The notes beneath the pieces were generated by a model. That model was not told where the DNA came from. It saw only the letters and a program-made list of their open reading frames with translations, and did no database searches. DNA of 64,000 bases, from assembly GCA_973895155.1 (NCBI GenBank), contig OZ316894.1, forward strand, positions 7,030,234 through 7,094,233, in the 5' to 3' direction. The translations under genes and the position numbers were made by a program. Positions within the stretch are counted from its first letter, which is position 1; the number at the start of each line of letters is the position of its first letter. This DNA is from Marsupella aquatica (lineage: Eukaryota > Plantae > Marchantiophyta). Below, in pieces: positions 36,333 to 62,059 of this stretch.

Positions 36333-39300
36333 TCACTGTGCTGGTATGGTATCATATAATCTTGAAAGGGCTAAATCTAGCACAGCCCTGAAGAACATCC
36401 GAGGGTAAATCGGAGGGTTCTCTGCAAGAGCCTGCAGGGCATGAAATCATTTCAGTAACAGTGCACTCTGATTTCCCAAAACAGGCAAGCACTTGAGTTG
36501 GATCCTCGGTTGGGTCTCGGATTTTACAAAGGAGTCTCGATCACGCAACATAAGTTATTCAACTGGTGATGCCATCATGCACACTCCAAAGATGGAGATT
36601 TTTTACCTGATGGATGAGCACCGTCGAGGGAGTCATCCCTGGAACTGTATTTGCTTCAATGATGATGACCTTTTGCAGAGAGCCAAAGATCAAGTTAAGA
36701 CTTCATTTGCTTGCAGAAGCAAAACAATCCCACAACATTAGACTGATCTGCCAATTTTTGCTTGAGTTGCAAAAATTGCATCACACTGGTAAACGCGGTT
36801 CAATCCCAAGTCACTCCGGCAAAACTCAAACTTGAACCAAAATCAAATAATTTACAGGAAGTTATTGGAGCCTGCCTGCCCTTTCATAGTCAATGGAAAT
36901 GAGAGTAGCTGACAGAATCAGAGTGTGCACCTCTCCCGTGTCCACTTGAAGAAATGCATCGATGCGCGCAAATCCCTCAATTCCCAGCGTGTTTGCTACA
37001 AGCGCAATTCTCTTCCTGCAACTTGAAATTGCCTCCTCCCTGCAATAGTGAGAGACGATCACCGTGGTCACTGTCTCCTCTCAGAGGCCCCACATAAGAA
37101 GAATACATGAATACTTTCAGAAGGACAGAGAATGACGGGATGATATTAATGAAATTGCAGCTTCTCAGGCCCCAATCAAGGACGAAGTTAACATAGGGAA
37201 AAGCAAGCAAGTTAGTTAGGATTTTCAAACCAACCTGACCAATGATGCTGGAGGAGGAGTTAAATTCACACCTGTACCACCTGCCAAGCGGTCCAATTTA
37301 GTTAGCGTTTAGTATTTTTAGCAGCAGAACCTTCCTATTGCTAACAGGACATGATAGTCCTACATCATACGGTCTTACCGCACTCTTTCGTCTGAGATGT
37401 CAAGCTACTGGCTAGTTGCCTAACATCTCACTAGTCGAAACCAAGGACACGCACAGTTTAAAGATCATGAGAATTACTTAAACACGAAAATGAACCAGTG
37501 AATCACACCTAGGTGGAGGAAGAGAGAGAACCTTGAAATTTCTCCTCAAGAGATAGGATAGCTCCATTCTCTTTCACTGTGATGCTGGGATTGAGAGCAT
37601 ACATTTCACCTTTTTTGCCCATGACACCAACTGTCACCTCCAACCAGCGACTCTTTCCAACCCATGACAGACCACCTGAATTCTTATCTTCTGCAACTGC
37701 CCCAGTGCGTCCGTTGTGTGGAGATGTAATTAAAACATCATCAGTTTCTATAAAATTCTCAAAAAGTAATTTTTCAGGCAGAGGATCTGGCATCTCGATG
37801 ATGCTGTGTACCTGCAAAAGTTTTTCCCATTGAATCGAATGAATTGTCTACCGAAAGATGAGAATAACCGCTATACCAACCAGAAATTAGATGGTATTGA
37901 CACAAAAACCATAGGTGGCGGTTCCCCAGATCTCGACATTGACACGACAAGTCTAACAGGGTATTTAGTGAAGAACCACGAACCGCACTCAAGCTGCCAG
38001 GTAGTATGCGTGGAACTTTCTCCAGCACGGCTCTCAAATAAACTTCAACGTCTTCCGGACAACTGCACCAATTGAACTGGAGTATCTTCAGCATGCAGTA
38101 GAGCCAAGCATACTTTTTACATTAAAGAACACGTAGTATACCATGTCATTTCCACACCAGTAACTTCGAAACTTTGTAACATTAAGCACCTGCAGGTAGA
38201 GAGGCTCAGATTGATACCAGAGCCTGACCTATAATTAGGGCTCCGATCATTTAGGACATGTATGATTCGAATGCATACCGTAGTCTGGCAACTCCAGTAG
38301 AGCAGCCATCACTTATAGGCTTCACACATATACTACTTGCCCGCAGGTCCTCACAGAGCACATCCCACATTTTGCCTGAACGGAATGTGCCCGTTATGAC
38401 TGACTTGGCGTCTCCGAACTCTGAGCCATTCTTCGACAGTTCACTCATGCTAAAAACTCTCTTAGTTGCAGAGAATATTCCATCTTCAGAGAGCTGCAAG
38501 AAGGTACCAAGAAAATACAAGCTTCAATACTGTGAAGAAAAATTCTGTACAGTTGAAATCCTTTCCAACAAAAAAGAGCAAGAAAATAGATACGGAAGAC
38601 AATCTTGACGAGACCATACATGAGCCAAGGCCAGTCCGGTTGCCACTTTATCCATGCACAGTCTCGATGCTTCCACACCAGACCCTGTTCGAAGATTTTT
38701 GTCACCACATCAATGGGCATTTCAAACTCAATTCAGATCTCTTCCAAAAAACGAATTAGATCTTAAATTCTGACAAAAAACCTACGGAAACTTCTTTAGA
38801 AATGCCCTTAAATGACAAAATCTAACTCATCACTTTAGACAACTTGAGCGTCGGTGCCAGTCATACTGTTTCCAAAAACAAACCATCATATGGTGACCAA
38901 TATTCCAGCTTCACAGCTACAATGAACTTGCAGGCGTCTTGTCAAGAGAGAACTACAGATTGCAGAAACAAACAGCTGAACAATGGCATGCTGACACAAG
39001 TGCAAGAGATCTGCGGTATACTAGTGTATAAGAGTTACCTGTATAAGGTACACCCGAAGCCTCCAAAACTTCTTGCAAAGTGCCATTCTCTCCAATTCCA
39101 CCATGCACTACGGTAAGCGCAAACAAAGCCACATTTACATGGTGAAAATTAGAATTGCAAAATACCGTTAAATGCAATGCTGATGAAGCAGCCAAAAAGG
39201 TGCTGCCAGCACATATTAGTGGCCAACTCTGTCTTGTTCGTTTAAATCTATGACGAATCTGCGTGCAGTCACTTTACAACTGTCAGTCTGGCATAACAAA

Positions 39301-42300
39301 ATGCCACTACAATTCATTACAACTGTCTGTGAATAGTCTTCTGAAGATAGCTCGCAAATGTTGAGGCATTGGCTTCACCATTCTCGCTCCTGCCGCTGTT
39401 ACATCTACTTGAAGAACTTCTTATTCTACCTCTTCTCGAAGTTGTCGAAGGATAGCATGGAGTTGAATTGACTTTAAATGTCCGCAGAACTCTATAACGG
39501 ACGTGAGGCGGAGAGTGCAAGAGGGGAGGAGAGCTTGACAGCAGCAAGAGAAGGATTACCTACCTAAATACCTGAGGACGACTAGTGCAGTATCCAGAAC
39601 TATGTAGTATAGTGAGCGATCTCTCAATGGAAAGAATGCTTTTACTATACTGCACGCCAACAAACATCTCGATGTACGAAGAAATAAGAATACCATTATT
39701 TAGACTCAGAGTTTGGATAAGAGGTAGAAGTTTGAGCTTCACCGGCGATAAACACAACTGCACCACATTCCCTGGCTTCTTTGATCCACTGTTCCAAAGT
39801 AAGCTGCCTTGGTGTCTCAGCTTCTAGATCCACCTCAGACACGAGATTTGAATACCCAGATCTTTTGAGTTCAGCAAGGGCTTGCTCCCGCAATTTTGAC
39901 AAAGCAAAAGCTGTGCTTGGCTGCAGTGCTGCCTCGCAACCTTCTACGATTTCTTCGACGGTGTGCCTCAAGACCAGAGAATAGCTGCCGCAACAAACAT
40001 GTCACGTGGGATAAGGGCATTCATATAAAACCCTTGACAAAACATTCATACACATGAAGCAAAACAATGAATCCTCAGATTTAAAACGAAAACAAACCAG
40101 ATAGAAAATGGACGTGGCTCCATGGGTTAGAAATAGACACTTACGGAAGTCCCCAGATTGTTCCTCCTATCGTCCCTTTGCCTTCGCTACCATGAATTGA
40201 GGGCGCCAGCACAAACGGGCTGACATCGAGCTGCAATGGGTAACATTCAGGTTGCGGAAAGGAGAACCGGGATCGGCTTGTAAATTCGTGAGAACTCAGA
40301 GACACCTAACCACGCATAGCTTTTCTAGTAGGTATCCAGCACTAGTGAGCATGCCCTATGGATAAAAGGTGGACTAACATAAGATGAAAACACTTGAAAC
40401 CAGGCAATAGAGAACGAAGTAGAAAAACGGCTGTGCACTAGCGAATTCATTCTAGAAAGTAACACAACAATCATGGCTAGATTGCACTCACGTCGTTGCA
40501 ACCATGCAAGTTGAGCCAGACATTTGTGCCACTTATTAATGAGACTTGTCGCTCAGACGAACTTCCTCCGAACAACACAAAAACTTTCTTCTTGGTTTTA
40601 TTCCTAGCAGTTGTAACTGGTGTGGTTGAACATCCGCTGAGGCTCAAGGATGGAAGCTGTGGATACCGTGAGCAAGCCTTACCAAGAATGGATTGGAGGA
40701 TACCCCCATGAGACAAGCCCACCTGGTTGCAAAGGAATTTGGAATTAGAACCTTGTTCTCTCAGAGTACGCAACGCATCTGCACAGAACACGATCTCAAA
40801 ACAACCGAGTAATTCAAACTACGACAGTGCTGCCTGGTGAGAAAAGTTGATTGTACTTAGAATAGACACTGATGAGATTGCATTCTTCTGGCACTCACGT
40901 AACACGGCTTCCTGGGAACAGTATGAATCCTATTCAGAGTTAACAATTACGAACCTGTGCAGCCTGTTGGAACAGAAAGCTCGTTTGCTCCATTCCACTC
41001 ATCTGGATGTACGTCAATATGCAGTATTAAGCAACACGGAGGCTGTTGCTAAAAAACTTCACAGTAAAAGGGCCGCTAAATACCAGATCTAAACGTAACA
41101 ACTGCTAGAACTACTGTGGCCACTACTACAGCAGCCGTTTGTCGCACATATGTTTCTGGCTCTACATTACTCTTCTAAACTTTTGTAGCCTATCAGCCAT
41201 TCTACTCATTATTTAGAGTAGTTTTTGTCAAAATTCACTTCCGCTTTCCGGTGGAATCTGAAGTCCACGAGACGTTAAATAGGCCAAAGGACAGAAAGTG
41301 GACAGAGATCTAGGGACAAAGGCAAACTGGATATGTTTCAGCACCCGTCTTGTCGTTTACTCTCATCTTCTAGCAATTTATGCTTTGAACTGTGTGCGAT
41401 GTCCACCTGAGATCTGGTGGACTTAAGATCCTTTCTATACAATTCAGTCTAAATTTAGACTCCCTGACTCAGCCAAACTTGCAACCAATTTCCTCCCTCA
41501 GACACGTCTCATTATGCTCCCCTGGTCGGCCTGCTCGGATTGTTCCTTTCGACAGTCAATCTAGATATAAGAACCTTGTCCAACGAAAGGCATGATTTTA
41601 TATTTCTTAATTACCCAGAAGTGCGAGAAAATTGTGTGCCTTGTGGCTCACAACATACCAGATTTATGTCAGAGAAGACCACAGTCCCTGTCTCAAATTG
41701 ACCGAGCAGTTTACGGCTTTTATCCTGTCCATGGCTGCCCAACGAAATTGTTGTTGAAGTAGGCAAAAACCAGCCATCCACCCGAGCAAAATCACGTAGC
41801 CCTAGTTGCTTAAATAGTGCTGCTGCACCGCTGCGAATTTCTGCAATTGCCTCCATTGGAAACCGGGGAGGACTGTGATAGTGTACCTGATCGAACACAA
41901 TAATACAATCCCCAATATTTAATGATCAGATCCACTACAAGCTGCATCCTGAAATGCACGGTCCACATCCTTTCACACCACATTTCACCTTTGCAAAGTG
42001 ATTGACCCAGTTCTCTAGTGTCATGTAGTGGAAAATGATAATGACGATAAGCGGAACCATTTTTCTTTATTCAGCTCAATTTATAAGTAAGCGTACAACA
42101 TACGAAGTGGACTTTGGGAATCACAATCCACCAATGGCGGCTAGTGTTGTGATACAAGTAGAAAAAGTCCAAGCTTCAAATACCTGTCTTGTGGGAAGGT
42201 ATTTCCTTCTATAATTGAAAATTTCTTCTTCACCTCCAGAAGCACCATCACCGGTCACCCTGAGTTCCACCTATTTCAGAGATGTCAGAGCGGTCAATAA

Positions 42301-45300
42301 TTTCTCATTCAATTCCAAGGCTTTCAAATGTACAACATTTTTGGAAGACCTGCCAAACTTGATTAGCAGAGGGCTCCTGGTCACCTCGAGGTCCGCACAT
42401 TGCTCTTAGTGCATATAATTAATGACACCGTATAGATGTTGCAAAATCTCGACACAAACCCGGACCATCTAATGCACGAATAGATGCTAGAGATAGCACT
42501 GAAGACGCATTGACCTTGCTTCTAGATCAGTGCAGACGTGAATATTAATTACACGTTCCAATAAATTACTTGATAAATAGATCCACCTTGGAGTCTTAGA
42601 CATATAACTTTCAATTACCACATATTTTCCTATGACTTCAGAGAATGACATTATCTAGTTTTACCTGAATGATTTTCAAGTTTGAAACACAAAGAGCTTG
42701 ATACATGTTCCATTTCAGCAAGGAACATGTCAGTATGGGAGCTCCTTTATCTCATTGACACCGTGTCTTTTAACCATGCAAAGGTGACACCCTTTTTCTC
42801 TTCGGGTTGCACATTGCTGTCAGTGTTTAACACTTCATTCAGAACGCCGTTATAATACTCTCTGGGGTCATTTTAAGGGTCAAGTTAGAACCTCAGTTGG
42901 CACTACCGGGTCATTTTAAGGGGTCAAGTTAGAACCTCAGTTGGCAGTAGTGCTACTGGATCTGATGTGTCTCCAGTCCCCACATCAAGAACAATGGTTG
43001 TAAACTCCTTCCCACCCTCTGCAAATGCTTCAACCAATACTCGCGCATCCACTCCCTGGAATTACCAGATCATACGTTTGGATCATAGTTCGAAGGAGAT
43101 ACAAATTTTTCAAATACACTTTAATCTAAAAGAAGGCTGTACACATGGAGTTAAATTAAAGAAAACCGCTAAAGAATAATATTTGTGATATATGATCATA
43201 AAGCATATTCTTTATCCTATTTGTATGCATGTTAGGGGGCAATTTTACCTGAGCAATAAGAGCCTCCGCTTTCTCGACAGCAGCTGCCACACCGAAGGCT
43301 ACACTAACTCCCACACTAGACCCTGCTCGCGCTGGTTTCACCTGCTCCGAATCCAGAGGTAATTTCAGTTCAGCAGTGTTGCTCACTACATGCTTTTCCC
43401 AAGGAAAAGAGGAATCGAAGCCCACCGACAAGATTTTACCAAGACCAAAGACTCTTGCTACATCCTCAGATTTATTTGCTGCCTGCTGAACAAGTATGCC
43501 ATATGACTGGTGAACTCGTAAACTTCACCTCCAAATTTATCCACTGCACATTTAGAAGGCCCGGGGCTTTGACATGTGTCCCGTCGACACAAAGTGTCAG
43601 TTAGATGCACTCACCACCACACGCCCAGACATTGCATCAATGCCGTTGCTCTCGAACCATTTGGTCAACTTATTTTCATCTGCTTTGGTTGCCTGTCATG
43701 TTACACAAAATGGATACCTTATAAATTAAAACACTCACCAAAATGACGATAAAGCCAGCTAGCTCTCGATTGTGAAGGTACCAATATATTCAATGACAAA
43801 GGGAGTTAGCATATACAATTCCGAAATAGGATTGAGGTGGATACAGAAAGACAGCATCCGACAAACCGCATGCTCAAAACTGATGAAAAGACGCTCCAGT
43901 AGAAACCTATGATAACTTTATGAAAAATAGACATGGATTTTTGAGTACCTCCAGAAGAAAAGAAGGTATTGTCGCAAACCCCAAGCTCCCAAGCTGCTCT
44001 GCTGCAGTGGCCTGACATTGCCAAATGTGAGCAACACCTATACCTCGAAGTTGTCACCGGCATCTTCACTGAGTTCGATCCAGACAGTCGAATGGACAGA
44101 AGGTTGATGATAGAACTTCTTCATCACAATCACTTACTCTCTGCGAACTGAGCCACCAAATGATTCAAGGAGGGCCAAGAGCTTTACCTTGTCAAAAGCT
44201 GACTCTGCTGCAGCTGCACTTGTGCCGACAAATGGGATGCCTGCACTTTCGAGAAGTTTCTGTTGCAAAACCAGAAACGGTTTACTAGAAGTTGTATCCG
44301 CCTCTATTTGGTTCTGTTTAACACTCTATCATCGTCCTACGGGGATTTTTAAAACATTCGAACGAAGCAGCTCAAATTCACTGTTGACTTAGTATTCCAA
44401 TCAAACAACGAGTAGTTGCCCACCTATCCCAAGGCTAGTTCCAAACAATAGTGAACGCAGTAACAATTGACAAGGTTGTGGCCAACCTGGATGCCACCAT
44501 CTTCACCAAACTGTCCATGAAGGACTGGGAAGACAATATCTGCTGATGCTCGAAGGTGTTGTAGAAATTCTTCGGTTGACTTGAAACCCTGTGCAGTACT
44601 ACTCATGAACAGGGTGTGATAAGAACTTCACTTCTGTAATGAGAAGAGTGCTGGAGCACTACCAAACGCAATTTAGAGGATGCCAGATATTAACAGCAAC
44701 TTGGCAGGCGAACCCAAGATCCACTCCATCGGGCTTTCAGCAACTCAAGCGAAAGAGAAGGCATGCAGAGCCTATAGTGATTAAAACGGCCCTCTGTACA
44801 AGGGAAGTCCCAAGAGCTAGAACTAACCTGGAGAGCTTGTAGTCAAAATCTGAAGGTGTATTTGAGTACATCTGTGTAATGTACCAACAAAGTTATTAGG
44901 TACACTGGTTGGAAGCGTCTTGCAATGCCATTCAACACTGAGTAGTAGCCAAGAAGCTACTACTCATTAGAATAAGTACCATCACTTTTAAGTGTGCTGA
45001 CGAAAATGCCAATCAAAACTTCTGAACAGTTACCGAAAGTCTCATGGCTACAAGCAAATACCGTGAAACCAAGCAATAATAATCCAGGTTAGCTGATGTA
45101 TCTCCCTCATGTGATGCACAGGAAGGAATATAAGTCAAAGTGAAGCAGTGCCTAGGATTTGGACATATTGAATAGGAATCCAGGTGATTGGTAGAGTTAT
45201 ATGGTTGACGAGGATAACCTGGCTATCTAAAATAGCATATGCTTGCAAATTGGTGTCCAAGTAAAAGCAGCTGATTAATATATCATCACCCTGTACATTT

Positions 45301-45743
45301 CCAAGATATAAGTCGGTATACTCTCGAATGTACACAACAAATTCAGCCTGGAGTTAGGGTAAATAGTTTGATGATCAAGTTGACTGAAAAGAAGTTCATG
45401 AGAACAGGCCATAGAAATGAGTGCAATGCTCAACCAGAACATCAGCCCACGCCAGACTGCCTTTCCAATATGCGGGAAAGACTAGGAGTGCTTAAAAATA
45501 GTAGTAAGAAACGAGGTCTTTGTATCTTCCTACAGTCACGTTTCGTCAAACCCGTCAGCCAACGACAAAGGAGTCGAAATGTGAGAAACAACATGGCAGG
45601 AACAAGACCTGCAGATGATCAAGTACAGATCGAGCTGAATTTAAGGAAATTCCCCTCTCCTGAGATGGCCCCCCACAGATTAGCCCCACTCGCAACTTCC
45701 CCGCTCCATTGGTGCTGCGTTCTTGAGAAACCGATGGTCTTAC
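36333..45743 (-). CDS. DDL: Plant-type D-alanine-D-alanine ligase with duplicated ATP-grasp/Ddl domains (~25 exons); no own ATG, predicted to be fused to the upstream dUTPase
   Basis: Exons encode KLRVGLICGGPSQERGISLNSARSVLDHLQ (45743-45609), MYSNTPSDFDYKL, IVFPVLHGQFGEDGGIQ, VKPARAGSSVGV, LLPTE|VEL, FNYRRKYLPT, LGLRDFARVDGW and SDINL|MSGMEQTSFLFQQA. The second domain has VFVLFGGSSSERQVSLISGTNVW, VHGGIGENGTLQ, CMDKVAT, CVKPISDGCSTGVARL, LSLEEKFQG|GTGVNLTPPP, EGFARIDAF and IIEANTVPGMTPSTVLIHQ|ALAENPP. Stop TGA at 36333-36335. Confidence 0.95.
42865..42949. repeat. ~43-bp tandem duplication covering a DDL exon end and its 5' splice site
   Basis: gggtcattttaaggg(g)tcaagttagaacctcagttggca.ta at 42865-42905 and 42908-42949. 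Confidence 0.9.
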
Positions 45744-45999
45744 CTGGGTTTACAAAGTTCAGTAAGAATTCATCATTCCCAGCTCAGAAGTCAACCCGCC
45801 GTCTCGCTCCATCACTAGATGTCATCTATATTCCTTCCAGGTAGAACCCACTTGGAAGGTGTAAAGCGTGGAGCTAGTATTTCACGTTGGGAACCTACAA
45901 GACTCCGCATAGAATGCCACCAAACTAGTTATCCAGTAACGTATACAACGTGACTCTGCGGTATTTCAATGTCTCACGCCGAATTACACCAGGGAGAGC

Positions 46000-46005
46000 T
46001 TTATT
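46000..46005 (-). terminator. Candidate AATAAA polyadenylation signal in the dUTPase-DDL intron
   Basis: tttatt on + at 46000-46005, about 135 nt past the dUTPase stop. Plant poly(A) signals are loose, so support is weak. Confidence 0.35.
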
Positions 46006-46138
46006 GTCAAACCCATTCCTGAACTGAGATTGCTATCATCGCTCAAACAGTACGTCGAGGAGATAATGAACCTTCTAAAACGGATCCGTTCATACGGATT
46101 CACAGTCGACGTGAACTTCGCCGGATTTGTCTCATCTA

Positions 46139-47494
46139 CTATTCTACTGTATCCACAGTACTTACAGCCTCCGCAACTGCAGCTGCGACAATTTCAGCTT
46201 TGTTCTTTATTCCCGAAGACCCGACGCCGCCAGCACCCCTTTCAGTCGACTCCAAAGAATCCGCTTCAACCACCTCTGGAGTGGCGATTTTCTCCAGAAT
46301 AAGCTGTGCGATTCTGTCACCTTCCATGATGTTAAAGTCTGTATCTGAGTGGTTAAAGAGTATAACCGCCACAGGTCCTCTGTAGTCGTAGTCAATGACT
46401 CCTGCCCCTACGTCAATGGAATGCTTCCAGGCCAACCCTGATCTTGGAGCTGTCATATCACCGCAGACAAGGCACTCAGTCGACGTGCCGACAAACAGTC
46501 AAAGATAACGATTACGAGGTGTATGCGAAGAAATGTATGCACGAAGACCTCCGCCTTGTGGACCACCGAGATGGACAAAGCAGAGAGCTGACGAGGCTTG
46601 ATTGCGAACTTCAGGCAGTGGAAGAATTAACAAAATTCAACCAAAACTTCTATGTCAGGATGGTGCAATGTTTACGTAGTGCCGTAGAACGGACGGGCAG
46701 ACATATATGGATCACCAGTTCCTACACTCCAAGAATGTGCAGGGAGATCGGTCACCACGAGAAATTAAACCAATTCCATGCTAATTGTGAGTTCATAAAG
46801 ATGGAAATCGTCGCTTACCAATTCGTGCATAGGTGCCCTCCGGAATTGCTATCGATAGTTCAGTCTTTACGAGAGATTTCCCGCGAGCAGGAACGATCGC
46901 CTCATAAGCACTGCATCATCCAGGACCAACACAGACAAGGGGTCAAGAAGACCAAAGCACGAAATCTGTGTCAGCCACCCCCAACAGTAAAAATGTACAT
47001 TACACATTTTTTGCCCTCCAGAAAGCATCATCACCGAGCCAGTGATCACATCGCGTTTGGCTTTGAAAGTCTAAGGAAAATGAAAAACCTCTACGAGAAT
47101 TACTACAACGGAAAGTCATGCAGTGGCAGCATTCAGTACATACCAACAGTGCAACAGTTCACAACAGCAGCTCCGCTTTAGTGAGCATTTGCACAGCAAG
47201 TGATGTAGGACAATGAAAATGAATTGGTGGTGAAGAAGACAACACAGACCTGCACAAATCGTAGCCTGCGGCGTGCTCCGACCGTCTCCTAGGCAGAAGA
47301 GCTTCAGGAGCAAGCTTCTTGACACGGAGGGCCCCAATGGCGTTCCCACCCCTGTTGCCATTGGACGAAGAATCAGCAGCCACCACCACTTTTTGCTCTA
47401 TAATTTGCTTCTTCAGTCGGGGCTCTTGCGGCTCTTCTTGCTCCGAACCGTCGTCAGCTCTGCTGTCATCGCTGCGACTTTCGCCTCCCGCCAT
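46139..47494 (-). CDS. DUT: Trimeric-type dUTP pyrophosphatase (dUTPase); exons 47494-~47250, 46910-46819, ~46449-46139 (or to 46166 when spliced on to DDL)
   Basis: Motifs AAGYDL (I), ARIAPRSGLA (II), [11 protein letters not shown] (III), GDRIAQLI (IV), [11 protein letters not shown] (V, variant). N-terminal EPRLKKQ is NLS-like. ATG at 47494; TAG at 46139-46141. Confidence 0.95.
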
Positions 47495-47694
47495 CACTGC
47501 TCACGAACTACTCAATGCAGGTCTTCCTCCTGCTCCTTCGCCTCTTCCTCTATCACTCAAATTCCTTCCTCTTCTCGTCCTCTTCTATCAATTTCTACTC
47601 CTCGACGCTCCTCGTCTACTGCTCCTGTTAACCCTTTGCATCAGCTCACCTCCAAATCTTCGAGCGAAGTGGAACGCACAACACAAACAGAGCG

Positions 47695-47742
47695 GCCCGC
47701 AAGAGATTCTCTCGTAAAGACTGAGCTATCGATAGCAATTCC
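47695..47742 (+). repeat. Inverted (antisense) copy of part of dUTPase exon 2
   Basis: 47708-47742 is the reverse complement of 46842-46876 at 34/35 positions; the + strand translates [12 protein letters not shown], the same peptide as exon 2. Confidence 0.9.
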
Positions 47743-47821
47743 AACTCTCTTTGGTCATTCCTTCGTCGTCTATGAACAGAATTCCATCGCCTCTCTCTAC
47801 AGTAATTGTCCTGTCCGCCAT
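47726..47821 (-). promoter_or_regulatory. Candidate 31-codon uORF upstream of the dUTPase ATG
   Basis: ATG 47821 to TAG 47726: MADRTITVERGDGILFIDDEGMTKESWNCYR*. Relevant only if the TSS lies upstream of 47821. Confidence 0.3.
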
Positions 47822-49630: not shown

Positions 49631-52600
49631 ATGGCATGCAGGTTAGCTCCAGCTTTGTCACCTGAGCTCGGCCATTTTTCTTCTTCCTCGCTCTCACCTT
49701 TCTCTCAGTTGAGGAGGTCGTCGACCGGGAATTCGTGCACCGGATTGGTTTTTTCGGTCGGTGGACCTCAGCCTCTCAAATTGAGGATCGCTATTCCGTC
49801 CCAAGCTGGTGGAAGCGCCACCCTTGCCCGTCGCCGCGTCATTATGGCTTCTTCGGCAACGGACTCTGTTTCTGATGCTTCCACGATGATTATTGATGTT
49901 TCTGCTGGTGAGATTGAGCTCTTCCTTTGATTTTTAGGCTATTTTCGTTCTCTCGCTTGTTTTCCTCGACATGTTTTTGTTAAAGCAGCCACCGGACTCT
50001 AGCTCGGGTAGGCAGACAGCAATTGAGAGGGAGACTGGTATTGTACAATCCTTTGTATTCCTGGAGGAAGATTACGGAATTAGTGAATTCATAATGAATA
50101 AAGGGAAAGCTCGATGCTGGTCTGTAGGTCCGAAGCAAGCTCTAATTTCACTCTCTGACAAGAGCGATCTGGATAGTCTTGCAAGCGGCCTCTCCGACCT
50201 CGGGTGAGTGATGCTCTCTCGTTCCTCACTGACCGTACTGTTAGCGGATCCTTCCAGTGAAAATGATTTCAGATGTCGAGTCTGATTTTCTTCCAAGTTT
50301 TTTGTGAGGAATGAAAAGTACGATGATCATGTTGGAATGGACTGAACGATGTGGCCATCAATTTCTTTGGCAGAAACCACAAATAATAATCTAGAGTAGC
50401 TTTGCTTGCTTCTTTAGAGTAAACGTATTCGACAACAGAAACTTGAAGCTGTGACACGAACATGTACTGCAGTCCAATTTTAGTCCAAATTTACATAACT
50501 GTTCGACTAAAATCCAACCAAAACTGTTCGAGATGCTTGTTGACCCGTCTGTCCCTAAGATGACAAATTTTCAAGTCAGAGGTATGATCAATATTACAAT
50601 AGGAGTTAATAGACACCAGGTATACACTCGTCGTTTCAATATACCACCAGCGAGAATGATTTGTAACATGTCCAGGACGGCTCCATGACCTGACAGCGGC
50701 TTTTGGCTCATCTTGCAGCTATACCCTGGTTTCCACGGGTGGGACTGCAACAGCTCTGGAAAAGGCCGGTTTTAAAGTTACAAGGGTGGAGCAGATTACA
50801 TCCTTTCCAGAAATGGTGACAAGTCTCTCCTTCACTCCATGTTCATTTGTTGTCAATGCATTTCGCACAGAAAAGATTCAACGTGTTGGCCAATTTGGAA
50901 ATTAGACATTCCGGACTATGAACCGTTGAAAGCTATGTATAAGACCAAAACAAGGGGTTCTAACAAGGATATGAAAGTGGTTCAGCTTGAAAGTTGTTTT
51001 TCTTCTCTTCTTGCAACGATCCCATCATTTGCTAGCAGTGAATAAACTGAATTCACTGCTGGCTGAAAGCTATTTTCTTGTAATTAATATCTGCTGTTTT
51101 CAGCTCGACGGTCGAGTCAAAACTCTCCATCCCTCAGTGCATGGAGGGATACTGGCAAGAAGAGACTTGTCCGAGCACATGGAAGCTTTGCAAGAGCATG
51201 GAATAGGTAGTCTTGCTAACCCAGAACAGCGAGGTTCCCATTCCATTTGGGGATGCTTCTGAAATATACTAGAGAGCCTTTCTTTGTTTGCGTTTGAAAC
51301 CACCTAGCTGCCGTTCGATGTTTGCTTAAAGGAGTGGAGGGCTGCTCAAGTGAGGCATTTCAGACAAGCTCACGGAACATTTTGGCCCTGATAATCGTAA
51401 ATGGTTTCTGTTATCTCTCCGAGTTCTAAATGTTCATACGTTTATCTGTGAGCAGGAACCATTGACGTCGTAGTAGTGAATCTATATCCTTTTTACAGCA
51501 CAGTCACTGCTCCTGGGGGAGCAGATTTTGAGACAGGTGTTGAGAATATTGATATTGGTGGACCAGCTATGATCCGGGCAGCCGCAAAGGTGGGGTGGGT
51601 ATCTCAAGCTCCGCTGGCAGTCTACTGTTCCATAAAGTAGAATCCAAGCTTAGATTCGATTGTGCCCCCAAATGAGCCCTATCAGTTTACAAAAAAAATA
51701 CTCACGGAGCCTTGGTTGTGATTTGTTCTTGCAGAATCACAAAGATGTTTTGGTGGTAGTAGATCCAGTTGATTACCCAGCTCTTTTGTTGAATTTGCAA
51801 GGCAAAGGACCAGAATCGAATGAGATATTTCGCAGGAGGTTGGCTTGGAAGGCATTCCAACATGTGGCTTCATATGACACTGTTGTTGCTGAATGGTTTT
51901 GGAAGCAGACAAATAGCTCTGGTAATACTTGTTGCAGAGCGAGATATATTAGAGAACATTGCTTAAGCAGATCAAGAGGGCCCTATGGGTAGTATCGTTT
52001 GTCCTGTGCAGTTTACCTATGTGCATCTGTCGTCTTAATATTGAAACATCCTGTGAAATGTTTTTTTTCATACTTACTCTGTCTACAATTTGGGATCCTA
52101 GAATACACTCTAAGGTCGACTTCATAATAGGTGGCAACCTAGTCCTTGCAAATGGCAAGATTTTGACGTCAGTGCTTCTGCAGGCACACAAAACTGGAAC
52201 CCTTCTCCTAGTATGAGCGTTCCTCTTTCTCTCAAATCTGTGCTCCGGTATGGGGAAAATCCTCATCAAAATGCTGCCTTCTATTCTGACGATTCTCTTG
52301 CGGAAGTTGGATCCGGAGGGATTGCCACTGCTATTCAGCATCATGGCAAGGTATGTTCAAGGGGGGAGCTTCCTCCCACTAAAGATTTGGACTGGGAAAC
52401 TTTGAAACGGTGATTTGTTGTGAGCTGTTTAGTTGTTCAGAATTGTCTTGAAAATAAATGGTTTTCTATTACTGAGAGCTGAATTCTCTAACATATTATA
52501 ATGTGCCCATTATGGCAGGAAATGTCCTATAACAACTATCTAGATGCAGATGCTGCCTGGAATTGCGTTTCGGAGTTCAGCTCCCCAACATGTGTAGTGG

Positions 52601-54080
52601 TCAAGCATACCAATCCTTGCGGAGTAGCTGCAAATGCAGATCTTTTGGAAGCTTACCGTCTTGCAGTCCGAGCTGATCCAGTTAGTGCATTTGGTGGCAT
52701 CGTGGCTTTCAACGTAGAAGTGGATGAGGTAAACTCCGACTTCCTCAAGTTGGATGTGACCTTGTCAGACCACGTTAACTTTTTTCAAAGGCCCGCCCTT
52801 ACCTATAGTGCCCCTGTATGTATGATTCATTGAACTAGACTCTCGAAGTGAAATATTTTGAGATAGAAAATCACTTGGTTGCAGGGGCCTTGATCTGCTG
52901 CTCTTCAATTATAAAGGATAAGGAGCAATCTCGCGCTTGTAGGATTACATATTTGTGGATTTAGTTGCATGAGGGAAACAAAGCTTTGACGTTTGTTTGG
53001 TGCATCTTTCAATTTCGCAGTTTTTCTCATTTACTCACCGATCATGATGGTTTTGGAAAGGGCAGGTTCTTGCTCGTGAGATACGTGAATTCAGGAGTCC
53101 AACAGATGGAGAGACAAGAATGTTCTATGAGATAGTTGTCGCTCCTAAGTATACTCCGAAGGGATTGGAGGTACTCAAAGGAAAGTCTAAGACACTCCGG
53201 ATACTGGAAGCTCAACCAAGCACAAAAGGAAGGCGCTCCCTGCGACAGATAGGAGGAGGGTGGCTATTGCAGGAGTCGGATGATTTAACTCCCGATGATC
53301 TTGGGTTTCGCTTAGTGACTGAGAAAATCCCAACAAATGAGCAAGTTGAGGATGCCAAGTTTGCTTGGCTCTGTTGTAAACATGTCAAGAGCAATGCAAT
53401 CGTAGTTGCCAAGGTTGATTACCTGTCCTTTTCTCTCTAATAAGCATCGATTTTGAAATGAGCATTCATTGCCCAAGAAATTATGAAATTTCCTTGATTT
53501 ATCATAATCAGCAGTTACTAGTTCCTGATGTCCTCTTGTTGCAGGATAACAAAATGCTCGGCATGGGCAGTGGACAACCAAATCGGGTGAAGAGTCTCCA
53601 AATAGCTCTAGAAAAGGCAGGGGATGCTGCTCGAGGAGCAGCTATAGCAAGTGACGCTTTTTTCCCGTTTGGTAACCGTCTGCCTTATCTTTTGTCTTGT
53701 AATCAGAAGCTATTGTTTTCATTCAACCTTGGATTCATGTAACTGACTACAAGGTTTGCGTTGTTTATCTGTTTCTTACAATCAGTTCATTGGAAAGTCA
53801 TGAGCCACTTTAACTCGGTTTCGCCCCGGTCCTTGCTCGTATGTACTCTACTCGTAAAAAGGTTCATACTCAAGGTTAACCTGTAATAGTTAAATCACCT
53901 AACTATTTCCTGGTTTCTTTTCCGGCAGCCTGGAATGATGCTGTGGAAGAAGCTTGCAAAGCAGGAGTGAAGGTGATAGCACAACCTGGTGGTAGCATGA
54001 GGGACCAGGATGCAATTGATTGCTGCAACAAATATGGTGTGGCAATGCTTTTCACAGAAGTGCGCCACTTCCGACACTAG
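49631..54080 (+). CDS. purH: Bifunctional AICAR transformylase/IMP cyclohydrolase, plastid-targeted, 11 exons
   Basis: Ser/Arg-rich transit-peptide-like exon 1. Motifs [24 protein letters not shown]|[44 protein letters not shown]|[13 protein letters not shown]|[77 protein letters not shown]. Confidence 0.97.
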
Positions 54081-56873: not shown

Positions 56874-58029
56874 TCAGATTTTTTCAGTCGATTAGGAACT
56901 CCATAGAACTTGCTTCAAGCAAAGCGAACAGCGGATGATTTCCTCTTCGAAGCGGAGCTATTGAAAGAAGATCAGACTCAATCTTCTCACAAGTGTGGAG
57001 CACACAACCAGGGGCTCATTTCAGTGAAGCAATGAAGGCTTGAGGTCAGAAACGGAAACAATTGTAAGTGACGATTTTCAATTTACGTTATCGGGCAAGA
57101 GATAAATTCAATTTCTCAGATCAGTCTTTTTTATTGTTCTATCGGGACTTGAAACTGAGATACGCTTGAGCGCCTTGTCTTTCTAGACGTTTCGATATCA
57201 ACATCGTTGAATTCCGTCAAACGGTTGAGAAGCAATCTTAATTTCAATTCTCGTTTTTTGAGCTCGAAATTTTGGCTATGGCGGATAACTTAATATCAGT
57301 CACTTTCACCGAATTGTTTCTCCCTCATTACTCCACCGTTTTGCGAGTTATTTATATCAATCTTGATGCCCTCGAAATCTAGTTTCTGAATCTGAAATCA
57401 GAATTGGATTTCATCAAAAACTGAGACGGGAATTTGAGTGAATCCGCCGAGGGGTACTTTCTGCCGCGAGTAGTCGCGACTTCCGCGGACGCGCGAGGAG
57501 GTCGAAAACTTCGAGGAGGCCTTTTAGCGTTCGACAGGGCTCGGGCAGGGGGAAGTGCCCCCTGTGAAGTCCCCCACAGGGACTGTACAAGGGCGGACGG
57601 AATTTCCCGAAAAGATTCTTTTCCAGAGGCTTAAATTTTTACCGAAGGTCAAAGATTCCGAGCGGCAAATAAAATCGGATCAAATTCAACTTTTGGAGAG
57701 ACGTACTTGGGGAAGCTAGGCAAGTATTGGTGCGTTCGATTCTGAAAAAGTACACTAGTGGAATCTTTGGCATAAGAGATTCCCTCGAGGGGTAATTATT
57801 TCATCTTTTATCCCCCTCCGGTCGGAGTAAAAATTCTTGGCACTCGAGAGTCCATTTGACAAACCATTTTCAGAATTTGGAGCGTTACCTTGTGGGCTAC
57901 ATGTAGGAGTGATCAGTTTCAAAATTCACGAACTTTCATTTTTGGCCTTATTTTCACACCCCACATCTGAGCATTCGACGTTTATTTCTTGTCGAAAGGC
58001 GACTCCACACTACATTTGGCATTCCAGCG

Positions 58030-61000
58030 ATGGCGACTACTAGGATTGGAGGTCAAAGGTTTGAGGTGGAAAAATTTGATGGTCGGATGGACTATACAAT
58101 GTGGGAACGTAACGTGAGGGATGCACTTAGGGCGATGGGTCTAGGCAAGGTACTAAGATCTCAACCCAAGGAGATGGAAGATGATGATTGGCATGATCTC
58201 CAGGATCAAGCGGTAAGTATTGTTGGCATGTACCTGAAAAACAATGTGAAGAAGAAATTCGAGGAAAAAACAACACAAACGGTGACGGACTTGTTTCAAG
58301 CATTGCGCAACAAGTACTACAAGAAGGAGATGTCAAACCGAATGTATGCAAGTCTGAAGCTCATGCAATTCAAAATGGCTGATGGAGTCAAGATTCAAGA
58401 TCATATCGATCAGTTCAATGATCTTGTGGTTGACCTAGAGAATTTGGGGGAGCATTTGAGCGAAGAAAAGAAAGCCTTACAACTCTTGGGCTCACTACCA
58501 CCTTCGTACCAATCTTTGTCTCGAGTTCTTCTATTCCGTGATAAGACAACTATATCCTACAATGATGTGGTGAGTGCCCTGTTGACCGATGACATGCAGT
58601 CTAAGCTGGTTTCTTCAGCTCATCCTACCTCAACCTCATCATCAACAGCACTGTTGGTAGAAAGAGGCAAATCAAGGGAGCCATCTCATGAAAACAAAAG
58701 GTTCAACCCACTTCCCATGGAGCGAGGAAGGTTCCACGACCGATCTTTTGGTAGGAGGAGGTTTAGATCCAGATCTAGATCTCGATCCAAATCACCATCC
58801 AAGTCTACTCGTGAGATAAAGTGTTGGAAGTGTGACAAAGTGGGCCACATGAAGAAGGATTGTCGGGTCAAAGACACATTCAAGTAAGTTGTCGGTTCTT
58901 CAGCCCAAGTAGTTGTTCGAGAAGAGGATAGTGAAGGATTTGCATTATGTACCACTTCCCAAGTTGAGGATTGTCAATGGATCTTGGATTCCGCTTGCTC
59001 GTATCACATGTGCTATATGCGTGAACTTTTCTCATCCTACACTCCTATCAACGGATCTGTTTTGATGGGAAATAATCATTCTTGCAAATTTTAGGGATTG
59101 GATCCGTAAAGATTCAACTACCCGGTGGCAAGTACTGTACTCTATCAAATGTCAGACACATTCCAGAAATGTGTAAGAATTTGATTTCTCTTGGCTACTT
59201 GGATACGAAGGGTTATCAATGGAGTGCAACTGATGGGGTGTTAACAGTCACGCATGGATCAACTGAAGTTCTTATTGGCAAGAGGAAAAGAAACATCTAT
59301 GTCTTGGAAGGCACCACACTTCTTGCCGAAGTCAATTTGGTCACATCTCAGGAGGAGAAAATCAATTTATGGCATGCTCGGCTTGGTCACATGAGTGAAA
59401 AAAGTTTGGAAATCTTACACAAGCGACATCTCCTACCAGGATTGCAAGCATGCAAGTTGAGTTTTTGTGATCATTGCATTGTCGGCAAGAAAACAAGAAC
59501 TCCATTTCCGACTGTCATTCATCATTCTAAAGTTGTACTTGAGTATATTCATTCCGGTGTGTGGGGTCCTGCTCCGGTTTCCTCACATTCAGGCAAACAA
59601 TACTATGTATCGTTTATCGATGATTACTCAAGGTTTGTTTGAATTTATTTCATTGCCCATAAGTTTGAAGTGTTTTCCATCTTCAAACAATGGGTAGCTC
59701 AAGTTGAGACACAGACTGCAAAGAATGTGAGATATCTACGATCAGATAATGGTGGTGAATACACCTTTGGCGAGTTCAACACGTATTATGCAAATAAGGG
59801 AATTACTCACCATCTCACAACTGTGTACACTCCTGAGCAAAATGGTGTTGCTGAGTGACTCAACCGCACATTGTTGGAGCGAGCAAGAAGCATGTTGAGC
59901 CACTCTAAATTGCCATAAATCTTTTGGGCAGAAGCTGTCAACATAGCTGCTTATCTAGTAAATCTCTCTCCTAGTCGGGCAATTACTTACAAAACCCCCT
60001 TTGAGCTATGGCACAATCGACCTGCTGATTATTCAAAGCTTAAGGTTTTTGGTTGTGAAGCATATGCACATGTTCCTAGCAACAATAGGACTAAGCTAGA
60101 TCCTAGAGCCCATAAATGCATTTTTCTTGGTTATCAGCGTGACGTTAAAGGATATCGATTGTGGGATCCAGTTGATTGCAAGGTACTTGTTAGTCGGGAT
60201 GTATCCTTCAATGAAGACAAATCATTGAAGGAGGGGGAGATAGGTCAATTCCCTACTACTAACAACGAGCAATCTCCTCCTGTAGAGGATTTAAGGGGAG
60301 AGGATGTGTCAAATGAAGAATATGTTGACACTACTATAAGGCAAAGCGCACTACAATCAGATCAGCCAGAGTCTTCAGTGCGAAGAGGAACTCGCAAACG
60401 TCAAGCCCGGGAAAGGTATGGTACTTGGCTTCCTTCTGATCAAGTGGATTTGGATGAAGAATCTATTGATGCATTGGTGACAGAAGATGGAGATCCATCC
60501 TCATTTCGAGAGGTCCTAGCTTCTATGGAGAAGCAACAGTGGCAGGCGGCGATGCGCATGGAAATGAAATCACTTCATGATAACAAGACTTGGGAACTCA
60601 CGAGTCTACCTAGTGACAAGCAGGCTGTTGACAGCAAGTGGGTGTATAGGAAGAAAGATGGACCCACGGAGGATGCTGAGAAGATATTTAAGGCTCGGTT
60701 GGTAGCCAAGGGTTTTACTCAACAAAAAGGTATAGACTACAATGAGGTTTTTTCACCTGTAGCAAAGTATTCAACAATACGTTTGCTATGTGCTCTTGTA
60801 GTTTTATTTGATCTGGTTTTAGATCAAATGGATGTTGTCACGGCATTCTTATATGGATCGTTGGATGAGGTGATTTACATGAGGCAACCAGAGGGTTTTG
60901 TGCAAAAGGGCAAGGAAAATTTGGTATGCAGGTTGCTAAAATCCTTGTATGGATTAAAGCAGAGCCCAAGGCAGTGGAACAAGCGTTTTGATGAATTTTT

Positions 61001-62059
61001 GAAATCGCTTGGATTTGTGCGAAGCGTGTACGATCCATGTGTTTACATAATGTGAACAACACAGGTTTTAAGCTTGTCATCCTTGTACTTTATGTGGATG
61101 ACATGCTCATTGCAGCACAGGATAGGGGCGAAGTTGATAAGCTTAAGGCCCAACTCAATTCTGAGTTTAAGATGAAGGATTTGGGCACAGCCAAAAGGAT
61201 CCTAGGCATGGAGATTGTCAGGGATGTTAACAAAGCCAAACTTTGGCTGACGCAAAAAAGATATGCAGAGAAGGTACTCTCAAAATTCAACATGGCAAAT
61301 GCTAAGGCTGTGAGTGTTCCTTTGGCAAGGAATTTCAATATTTCTGTAACATTTTGTCCATCGGATGCGACAGAAAAAAGTTTGATGTCCAAAGTTCCTT
61401 ATGAAAGTGCTGTAGGTAGTTTAATGTATCTCATGGTATGCACCCGACTAGACATAGCTTATGCCGTTAGCAAGGTAAGCAGATACATGGCAAATCCAAG
61501 AAAAGTTCATTGGGAAGCAGTGAAATGGATTTTGCGCTACATCAGAGGTTCCACTAAGAAGGGTTTATTGTTTGATGCAAGTTCAAACAATATGAAAGTG
61601 CTTCAAGGTTATGTGGATGCAGACTACGCAGGTGATCTGGATAAAAGGAGATCGACAACTGGATATGTATTTACACTTGCTGGTGGATGCATTAGTTGGA
61701 AGTCTACTCTCCAAAAGTGTGTTGCAAAGTCTACTATGGATGCCGAGTATGTAGCAGCAACAGAAGCAGCATCAGAGACCATTTGGTTGAAAAAGCTTGT
61801 CACGGAAATGGGTTTATCACAGGAGTGTGTATATCTTCATTGTGACAGTCAAAGTGCAATTTACACTGCCAAGAATCAGGTGATGGATGGCAGGGTAAAG
61901 CACATTGATGTCCGCTATCATTTCATCCGACAGGCATTATCGGATGATGAATTTGAGCTTGTCAAGATTGATGGAAAGCTTAATCCAGCGGATGCTTTTA
62001 CCAAAGTATTAGACTCCAATAGTTTTTCAAGGCATTGTAATTATTTACAAATATTGTAA
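58030..62059 (+). pseudogene. copia gag-pol polyprotein with nonsense and frameshift lesions
   Basis: Gag with a CX2CX4HX4C knuckle (CWKCDKVGHMKKDC); protease WILDSACSYHMC; GAG-pre-integrase WHARLGH..CDHC; integrase LRSDNGGEY, PEQNGVAE; RT KARLVAKGF, QMDVVTAFL, LYGLKQSPRQW, LYVDDML; RNaseH YVDADYAGD, CDSQSAI, KHIDVRYHF. Stops at 58885, 59640 and 59856; frameshifts near 59080 and 61050. Confidence 0.95.

What the first reader, a model, noticed from the sequence alone, without database searches (positions are those of the whole stretch)
36333..47494. dUTPase and D-Ala-D-Ala ligase form one gene: in-frame splice fusion versus intron-retained free dUTPase
Seen: the first DDL exon (from 45743, VRPSVSQERSTNGAGKLRVGLICGGPS) has an in-frame TAA just upstream and no ATG. 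It starts at an acceptor, tttgtaaacccAG. The last dUTPase exon has a consensus donor GCT|GTAAGT at 46165, 8 codons before its TAG. Both sites are phase 0, so removing 45744-46165 (422 nt) gives ...[17 protein letters not shown]..., a single dUTPase-DDL-DDL polypeptide. Not splicing gives a standalone dUTPase with its own stop and a candidate AATAAA at 46000-46005. Established: Ddl makes the D-Ala-D-Ala dipeptide used in plastid peptidoglycan of moss, and dUTPase is a homotrimeric, usually S-phase-linked enzyme. Inference: a splice/poly(A) switch could tie the supply of chloroplast-wall precursor to a DNA-replication promoter, and dUTPase could trimerise the ligase. Caveat: I may recall a dUTPase-linked DDL from moss and cannot check it, so the fusion may not be new. 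The two-isoform switch is the part to test.
Basis: partly seen in the sequence, partly recalled or inferred. Interest (0 to 1): 0.85.

Follow-up and report, generated by a model that had tools for sequence, protein, structure and literature searches.

The report
Chloroplast-wall ligase hitchhiking on duplicated dUTPase
In this likely leafy liverwort, the intact gene for the enzyme that makes a chloroplast-wall building block has no start codon or targeting peptide of its own and lies just behind a spare, decaying copy of a DNA-metabolism gene, to which it is probably spliced as one fused protein, a pairing seen in none of the related proteins checked but not yet confirmed in RNA.

Summary
The coordinates check out. 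[quoted passage not shown] The DDL has an in-frame stop before it and no ATG until codon 70. The 422-nt splice would give an open 1118-aa fusion. No RNA run was available, so the splice is inferred.

For the splice: DDL exon 1 is conserved up to the acceptor and not beyond; no second DDL copy was seen; other plant DDLs start with their own N-terminal extension in this exon. The dUTPase is one of at least three copies and keeps its frame while changing 6 of 85 near-invariant residues, including the motif-V Phe.

Against: both splice sites are middling, a stronger rival acceptor and a four-codon ATG mini-exon lie in the spacer, and AATAAA is at chance level.

No dUTPase occurs in 404 DDL-type proteins, including moss, so the moss recollection is not backed. 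The best reading is a young chimeric gene in which the dUTPase copy lends promoter and start codon. An S-phase switch or a trimerising enzyme is unsupported. The scan's earlier notes hold no such pairing.

The parts
47690..47745 (.). Inverted (antisense) copy of dUTPase exon 2 in the upstream leader; core 47708-47742 matches 46842-46876 at 34 of 35 nt; predicted 46-bp RNA duplex if co-transcribed
   Evidence: blastn E 3e-10; duplex -75.6 kcal/mol; z -3.25
47497..47649 (-). Predicted 5'-leader intron (best-scoring donor of the upstream 2.2 kb, 8.6 bits; acceptor 3.7 bits just before the ATG)
   Evidence: predicted only
47250..47494 (-). dUTPase exon 1 with ATG; acidic N-terminus (11 D/E in 45 aa), not transit-peptide-like
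46819..46910 (-). dUTPase exon 2
46139..46449 (-). dUTPase exon 3 with own TAG; PF00692; motif V carries F188V and T191S; four phase-0 GT donors (46411, 46366, 46273, 46165)
46160..46165 (-). Candidate internal donor GTAAGT, phase 0, after all dUTPase motifs; kept in organism B's orthologue, changed in the paralogous copies
45744..46165 (-). Candidate 422-nt intron: dUTPase tail and 3' UTR (homology to the paralogue reaches about 46050) followed by non-coding sequence, possibly a decayed transit-peptide exon (weak signal only)
46000..46005 (-). AATAAA, candidate poly(A) signal; chance-level, altered in one haplotype of organism B
45895..45910 (-). Rival signals: ATG at 45910 with a 4-codon mini-exon and weak phase-0 donor at 45898 (2.4 bits); strongest acceptor of the spacer at 45895 (7.7 bits), which would give a 213-aa dUTPase with another tail
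45744..45752 (-). In-frame TAA (45752-45750) and candidate acceptor AG (45745-45744), lying inside what is one continuous first exon in other plants
45609..45743 (-). DDL exon 1: 16-aa linker homologous to Calypogeia plus start of ligase module 1 (PF01820); no ATG
36333..45290 (-). DDL exons 2-24: rest of module 1 and module 2 (from 40722), all GT-AG, no stop or frameshift, TGA at 36335-36333

Best explanation
The intact double D-Ala-D-Ala ligase gene has no start codon or transit peptide of its own and is probably made as a spliced dUTPase-DDL fusion from the promoter and ATG of a duplicated, decaying dUTPase copy that likely landed just upstream in this liverwort lineage. Shown: gene anatomy, open fusion frame, intact ligase, at least three dUTPase copies, relaxed constraint on the linked copy, no such fusion in other DDLs examined. 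Inferred: (1) the dUTPase copy displaced the DDL promoter and start; (2) read-through transcripts use a latent phase-0 donor in the dUTPase tail and a cryptic AG inside the old DDL first exon, cutting out the dUTPase stop and the dead transit-peptide sequence; (3) selection keeps the dUTPase frame open because the ribosome must cross it, while its catalytic residues drift; (4) the fusion would be cytosolic or nuclear, so D-Ala-D-Ala would be made outside the plastid and imported; (5) free dUTPase transcripts likely also arise, by termination in the spacer or use of the 45895 acceptor, as by-products rather than a regulated switch.
For: DDL is whole: 24 exons, 911 aa, 781 of 902 identical to Calypogeia P0121, ligase motifs as in Physcomitrium. 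It deviates at 13 of 343 conserved columns, the same as Calypogeia. Exon 1 is conserved although the first Met is codon 70. The 17-aa linker scores +25 bits against Calypogeia versus -3 to -7 for 10 shuffles, and clear similarity stops at the acceptor. In other plants this exon runs on from an ATG: 45 of 72 exon-1 read-through ORFs have Met and at least 60 aa before the ligase motif. No second DDL exon 1 at 80% likeness in three runs, while two more dUTPase copies appear in X1. The linked dUTPase changes 6 of 85 near-invariant columns (1 of 64 homologues has 6 or more; 51 have 0 or 1), 10 versus 2 unique changes against P0054 (p 0.039), yet has no frameshift where roughly 8-24 indels would be expected if neutral since duplication (rough estimate). 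The paralogues have lost the consensus donor. Loss of the motif-V aromatic ring cuts kcat about 20-fold in human and mycobacterial dUTPase (PMC2978360 Results; Ala mutants, not Val). A truncated Arabidopsis DDL is cytosolic and its mutants keep normal plastids (PMC9954125 section 3.1; the authors say activity is not shown).
Against: No junction read: all four runs are contigs that cover introns like DNA. The donor is only middling on the local matrix (below 23 of 25 true donors scored leave-one-out), and a stronger acceptor (45895, 7.7 bits) and a stronger out-of-frame donor (46071, 6.4 bits) compete in the spacer. The V-S pair that spells the donor is also in a stand-alone Calypogeia dUTPase, so the hexamer may be inherited, not selected. 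Conservation in organism B says little: at 13 substitutions in 395 nt, 8 unchanged letters are expected about three times in four. Rate acceleration is not significant against P0309, P0056 or P0059 (p 0.07, 0.30, 0.42), nor in the dUTPase-versus-DDL contrast (Fisher p 0.20). The orthologue in run X4 keeps the motif-V Phe. The transit-peptide relic is not statistically established (p about 0.04-0.25 over four tests). A 46-bp leader/exon-2 duplex could hinder translation through the dUTPase part.
Confidence: 0.6

Rival explanations
1. Two separate, tightly packed genes: DDL is transcribed from its own start inside the spacer or the dUTPase body and begins at a short ATG exon (45910-45899, four codons) spliced to 45743, giving a free ligase without a transit peptide.
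For: Seven ATG-plus-phase-0-donor combinations exist in the spacer; the 45910 one gives a 155-nt intron, within the locus range of 126-665 nt, and shows no listed change in organism B. It explains the conserved exon 1 equally well.
Against: Its donor scores 2.4 bits, below 24 of 25 true donors. The ATG lies 229 nt behind the dUTPase stop, and dUTPase 3' UTR homology fills the first 90 nt, leaving little room for a promoter. The better mini-exon (ATG 46016) is frameshifted in one haplotype of organism B. It does not explain a dUTPase that keeps its frame but loses conserved residues.
Confidence: 0.2
2. One reading: a regulated splice/poly(A) switch makes either free active dUTPase or a bifunctional fusion, tying wall-precursor supply to a replication-linked promoter, with dUTPase trimerising the ligase.
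For: The 46165 donor is the only one of four phase-0 donors that keeps all dUTPase motifs. The stop codon and an AATAAA remain. The frame is intact and X4's orthologue has the motif-V Phe. Trimer formation with motif V on a C-terminal arm is established (PMC5519681 passage).
Against: Relaxed constraint on the linked dUTPase and two further copies; AATAAA at chance level and not conserved; the architecture is absent from 404 DDL-type proteins, so it is not an old conserved device; no expression data.
Confidence: 0.1
3. Nested arrangement: an upstream leader exon (donor 47649) splices straight to 45743 and skips the dUTPase, which then sits in DDL intron 1.
For: The 47649 donor is the strongest upstream (8.6 bits), and one frame before it is open for 35 codons and in phase with DDL.
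Against: That frame has no ATG and is closed by a TGA; no similarity to the Calypogeia N-terminus upstream (143 and 222 of 300 shuffles score as well). Other upstream ATG mini-exons are 6-13 codons, 700-1000 nt further away.
Confidence: 0.05
4. DDL here was recently decapitated and makes no full protein (pseudogene in the making, or only a form starting at Met70).
For: No ATG and no transit peptide; 4 of 10 listed coding differences to organism B are non-synonymous (truncated list).
Against: No stop or frameshift in 24 exons, normal rate against Calypogeia (18 vs 22 unique changes), no second copy seen, while the sequence upstream of the acceptor is already unrecognisable.
Confidence: 0.05

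Closest known systems
Plant double DDL (Physcomitrium PpDDL BAE45860.1; Calypogeia fissa CAM6120126.1 and CAM6083079.1; Marchantia, Riccia, Arabidopsis At-DDL)
   Same: Two ligase modules in one chain, conserved motifs, 87% identity to Calypogeia. The double architecture is in print (PMC9954125, section 3.1 read).
   Different: All full-length bryophyte proteins inspected start with their own Met and a 70-120-aa extension; none carries dUTPase. Calypogeia's two DDLs and two dUTPases lie on four different contigs.
Homotrimeric dUTPase (PF00692; Calypogeia CAM6087956.1; PDB 4OOP-type plant enzyme)
   Same: 124 of 136 core residues identical to Calypogeia, same acidic N-terminus and C-terminal tail.
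   Different: Motif V Phe to Val and Thr to Ser plus four more changes at near-invariant columns; lies 395 nt before an ATG-less gene.
Chimeric mRNAs from read-through and cryptic intergenic splicing at rearranged plant gene pairs (Pontier et al. 2019, PMC6545605, passages read)
   Same: Same-strand pair made by recent duplication or translocation; cryptic splice from gene 1 into gene 2 competing with gene-1 polyadenylation.
   Different: There chimeras appear in mutants and the duplicated partner is usually gene 2; here the duplicate is gene 1 and the chimera would be the only route to a needed enzyme.
N-terminally truncated, cytosolic Arabidopsis DDL of the ddl-1/ddl-2 lines (PMC9954125)
   Same: DDL without its targeting peptide, with apparently normal plastids.
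   Different: T-DNA artefact holding the 3' part only, activity untested; here a natural allele with both modules.

Membership tests
Plant double DDL | Two tandem Ddl modules (PF01820 start in each) | tested here: met
   PF01820 N-terminal matches at 45743 and 40722 exons (both under the curated cut-off as single exons); end-to-end alignment to P0121
Plant double DDL | Conserved ligase motifs and intact frame | tested here: met
   911 codons without stop; motifs as in Physcomitrium
Plant double DDL | Own ATG and N-terminal, transit-peptide-like extension in exon 1 | tested here: not met
   In-frame TAA two codons before the exon, first Met at codon 70, no homologous open frame upstream
[quoted passage not shown]
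   Known for moss only through citing papers
Trimeric dUTPase | PF00692 domain | tested here: met
   96.7 bits on exon 3 alone, cut-off 22
Trimeric dUTPase | Aromatic residue in motif V | tested here: not met
   Val in the window against Phe in 64 of 64 homologues; Phe in run X4's orthologue
Trimeric dUTPase | Homotrimer and dUTP hydrolysis | not tested
   No fold or complex job was run
Chimeric gene by intergenic cis-splicing | Recently rearranged same-strand pair with a duplicated partner | tested here: met
   Three dUTPase loci in X1; genes unlinked in Calypogeia
Chimeric gene by intergenic cis-splicing | In-frame donor and acceptor | tested here: met
   Phase 0 on both sides, 1118-aa open frame; scores middling
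Chimeric gene by intergenic cis-splicing | Junction seen in RNA or protein | not testable with these tools
   No RNA holder listed
Chimeric gene by intergenic cis-splicing | Relic of gene 2's lost first-exon part in the new intron | tested here: inconclusive
   z 0.8-1.7 for the whole Calypogeia N-termini in anchored tests, other bryophytes mostly lower; local tests not significant

The most novel reading that the evidence does not exclude
A land plant whose only DDL has become an obligate dUTPase fusion without a transit peptide, so the dipeptide for chloroplast peptidoglycan is made outside the plastid under a captured dUTPase promoter, with splice-versus-poly(A) choice and an antisense hairpin in the leader setting how much ligase is made; a chimeric gene caught while its 5' partner turns from enzyme into leader.
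Probability: 0.3. Interest if true: 0.75.

Novelty: new variant of a known kind. Interest (0 to 1): 0.5.

Why it matters
If the splice is real, this is a natural test of an open point in plastid peptidoglycan biology: whether D-Ala-D-Ala must be made inside the plastid. Tran et al. (PMC9954125) left that unresolved with a cytosolic Arabidopsis fragment. It would also be a clear case of read-through splicing at a rearranged plant locus becoming indispensable instead of being suppressed, and a new domain partner for plant DDL. It looks lineage-restricted and young, so it does not change the general picture of DDL or dUTPase.

Tried and rejected
No RNA holder listed; all four runs laid as contigs covering introns. 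The one joint near the junction (45620/46440, run X3) does not have intron ends and falls on GATC at both sides; I read it as a ligation artefact (inference). No whole genome held, so synteny and a genome-wide DDL count could not be done. Hirano et al. 2016 not held under DOI, PMC id or PubMed id; its localisation data and supplements are unseen and may bear on the moss recollection. Paper searches for the pairing: dUTPase + D-Ala ligase; 2 dinoflagellate papers, listing only; 2 papers; PMC4815162 passages show dUTP only as library chemistry; 0 papers; searches gave no fusion in the listings; (Marchantia neighbour ids) gave 0. Fusion searches: 0 of 120 listed (of 1880) long dUTPase hits carry PF01820; 0 of 90 and 0 of 120 listed (of 2046) DDL hits carry PF00692; 150 of 237 representatives listed; a dUTPase profile over 405 stored proteins hit only the dUTPase control P0309. 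ESM Atlas plant DDL clusters list no PF00692 (families under 10% are hidden). Transit-peptide relic: looked convincing by eye (short collinear words), but five tests gave at best 13 of 300 and 46 of 1000 shuffles; kept as suggestive only. The bacterial promoter scan is irrelevant to a plant. No structure or complex prediction was run. Earlier scan notes: none by words or relatives; eight double-Ddl notes from other genomes by sequence.
Full report
Observation. On the minus strand a three-exon dUTPase (47494-47250, 46910-46819, 46449-46139; 215 aa) is followed after 395 nt by a DDL whose first exon begins at 45743. The spliced frame is open for 1118 aa. The exon model came from tblastn of the Calypogeia protein with automatic GT-AG refinement; I moved one junction (exon 7/8) by one codon by hand. 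One 11.4-kb contig of run X1, possibly the source of this DNA, spans DDL, spacer and dUTPase exon 3 without a difference, and overlapping contigs of X4 (other study, other organism label) cross the spacer.

Organism and relatives. The best matches of both genes are from Calypogeia fissa, so the window is likely from a leafy liverwort. Calypogeia has two DDLs (992, 999 aa), each with its own Met and about 90 extra N-terminal residues, and two dUTPases, on four different contigs. Marchantia, Riccia, Sphagnum, Ceratodon, Physcomitrium and Psilotum DDLs also start with their own extension. A dUTPase profile run over 405 stored proteins (206 of at least 850 aa) hit only the dUTPase control. The searches list only their best hits (120 of 1880, 120 of 2046, 150 of 237), so absence is shown for the listed rows only. 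The moss recollection is not backed by the Physcomitrium records; Hirano et al. 2016 could not be read.

The ligase is alive and needs an upstream start. It has 24 GT-AG exons, no stop, 781 of 902 residues identical to P0121, and motifs as in moss. It deviates at 13 of 343 conserved columns, as both Calypogeia copies do, and shows no rate excess (18 vs 22, 22 vs 24). No second DDL appears at 90% likeness over the gene or at 80% over exon 1; a more distant copy would be missed. The first in-frame Met is codon 70, yet exon 1 is conserved, and even the variable linker in front of the ligase motif scores +25 bits against Calypogeia (10 shuffles: -3 to -7). Upstream of the AG that similarity is gone, and organism B differs there by 13 substitutions and 4 frameshifting indels in 395 nt. 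In other plants this exon is continuous from the ATG: 45 of 72 exon-1 read-through ORFs have Met and at least 60 residues before the motif. I infer that the AG at 45744 is a recruited acceptor inside the old first exon. Whether the spacer still holds the decayed transit-peptide sequence is open: anchored tests gave 13-28 of 300 and 46-201 of 1000 shuffles at or above the observed score, local tests nothing.

The dUTPase is a spare copy. Run X1 holds two further dUTPase loci; one shares the tail and part of the 3' UTR. The linked copy changes 6 of 85 columns that are at least 95% conserved in 64 homologues, among them motif-V Phe188Val and Thr191Ser (both 64 of 64); 51 of the 64 homologues change 0 or 1, and 1 changes more than 4. 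Against P0054 it has 10 versus 2 unique changes (p 0.039), but against P0309, P0056 and P0059 the excess is not significant, and X4's orthologue keeps Phe. Removing this ring lowers kcat about 20-fold in two other dUTPases (PMC2978360, abstract and Results read). The frame is nevertheless intact; a rough estimate from partial variant lists expects 8-24 indels had it been neutral since the duplication. An open frame with drifting catalytic residues is what a translated leader would show. Its N-terminus is acidic (11 D/E in 45 aa versus 2 in 45 and 2-3 in 60 for bryophyte DDL N-termini), so a fusion would not be predicted to enter the plastid.

Splice signals. On a matrix from the locus's 25 introns, the donor scores 4.0 and the acceptor 5.0 bits; 90 of 740 and 60 of 701 decoys do as well. 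The matrix ignores compensation: 9 of 25 true donors lack AG before the GT, and one has the same perfect hexamer. The paralogues read differently at this hexamer, and one in organism B has lost the GT; organism B's orthologue keeps donor and acceptor and adds two pyrimidines before the AG, which is weak evidence at about 3% divergence. Three more phase-0 donors in exon 3 would also give open fusions (1036-1082 aa). Competitors are an acceptor at 45895 (7.7 bits; gives a 213-aa dUTPase), a donor at 46071 after the stop (6.4 bits), and ATG mini-exons at 46016 and 45910. AATAAA is expected in 12% of shuffled spacers, occurs twice in the 23 DDL introns, is absent from the 430 nt behind the DDL stop, and is altered in one haplotype of B.

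Mechanism. Most likely (0.6) a duplicated dUTPase displaced the DDL promoter and start, and read-through with cryptic splicing rescued the ligase as a fusion lacking the transit peptide. Free dUTPase is then a by-product. Tolerance of an extra-plastid ligase is plausible but unproven: a truncated Arabidopsis DDL is cytosolic with normal plastids, and labelled D-Ala-D-Ala given from outside reaches the moss plastid wall (PMC9954125, section 3.1 and passages read). Rivals: own start with a mini-exon (0.2), regulated bifunctional switch (0.1), nesting (0.05), decapitated gene (0.05).

Extra element. A 35-nt, 97% inverted copy of dUTPase exon 2 lies at 47708-47742 and extends to a predicted 46-bp duplex. 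It differs from the local exon at 1 site, whereas the paralogue differs from the local exon at 4 listed sites in the same stretch, so it derives from the local copy. A strong donor at 47649 suggests that it is part of a leader exon. It may be a scar of the rearrangement or may damp expression; untested.

Known context and verdict. It works like the chimeric transcripts of rearranged plant gene pairs (PMC6545605, passages read), but membership needs a junction read, which could not be tested. Other papers were seen as passages only: PMC9434261, PMC7432710, PMC12681378, PMC10784329, PMC4815162, PMC5519681; no supplements were read. Nine searches showed no report of this pairing; most subscription journals are outside the library. 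The reading of the Calypogeia extension as a transit peptide rests on composition and general knowledge, not on a predictor. Verdict: real anatomy, probable young fusion, regulatory story unsupported; new variant of a known kind; interest 0.5.

Noticed in passing
window 47690-47745 and 46838-46895: Inverted copy of dUTPase exon 2 in the upstream leader, predicted 46-bp duplex (-75.6 kcal/mol); derived from the local copy, not the paralogue.
   Followed up: partly
window 47497-47649 (-): Predicted 5'-leader intron with a strong donor; the frame before it is open for 35 codons, in phase with DDL, without ATG.
   Followed up: partly
window 51654-53739 (+): AICARFT/IMPCHase (purH-like) exons, PF01808, transcribed divergently from the dUTPase; synteny with Calypogeia could show which gene was here first.
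   Followed up: no
window 57913-62056 (+): Copia-type LTR retrotransposon (gag, zf-CCHC, pre-integrase, SH3, RVT_2) in several frames.
   Followed up: no
window 3980-8029 (-): POT/PTR2 peptide-transporter exons.
   Followed up: no
window 42876-42936: Tandem duplication of about 45 nt covering a DDL exon end and its donor; run X4 has a contig that skips 44 nt here.
   Followed up: no
window 46223-46225 and 47282-47284: Motif-V Phe/Val differs between runs X3 and X4 of organism B, and a Gly-to-Arg change is seen only in organism A: decay of the linked dUTPase looks ongoing.
   Followed up: partly
P0333, P0437, P0374: Double-Ddl proteins from elsewhere with other long N-terminal additions (about 190-250 aa), none dUTPase.
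   Followed up: no
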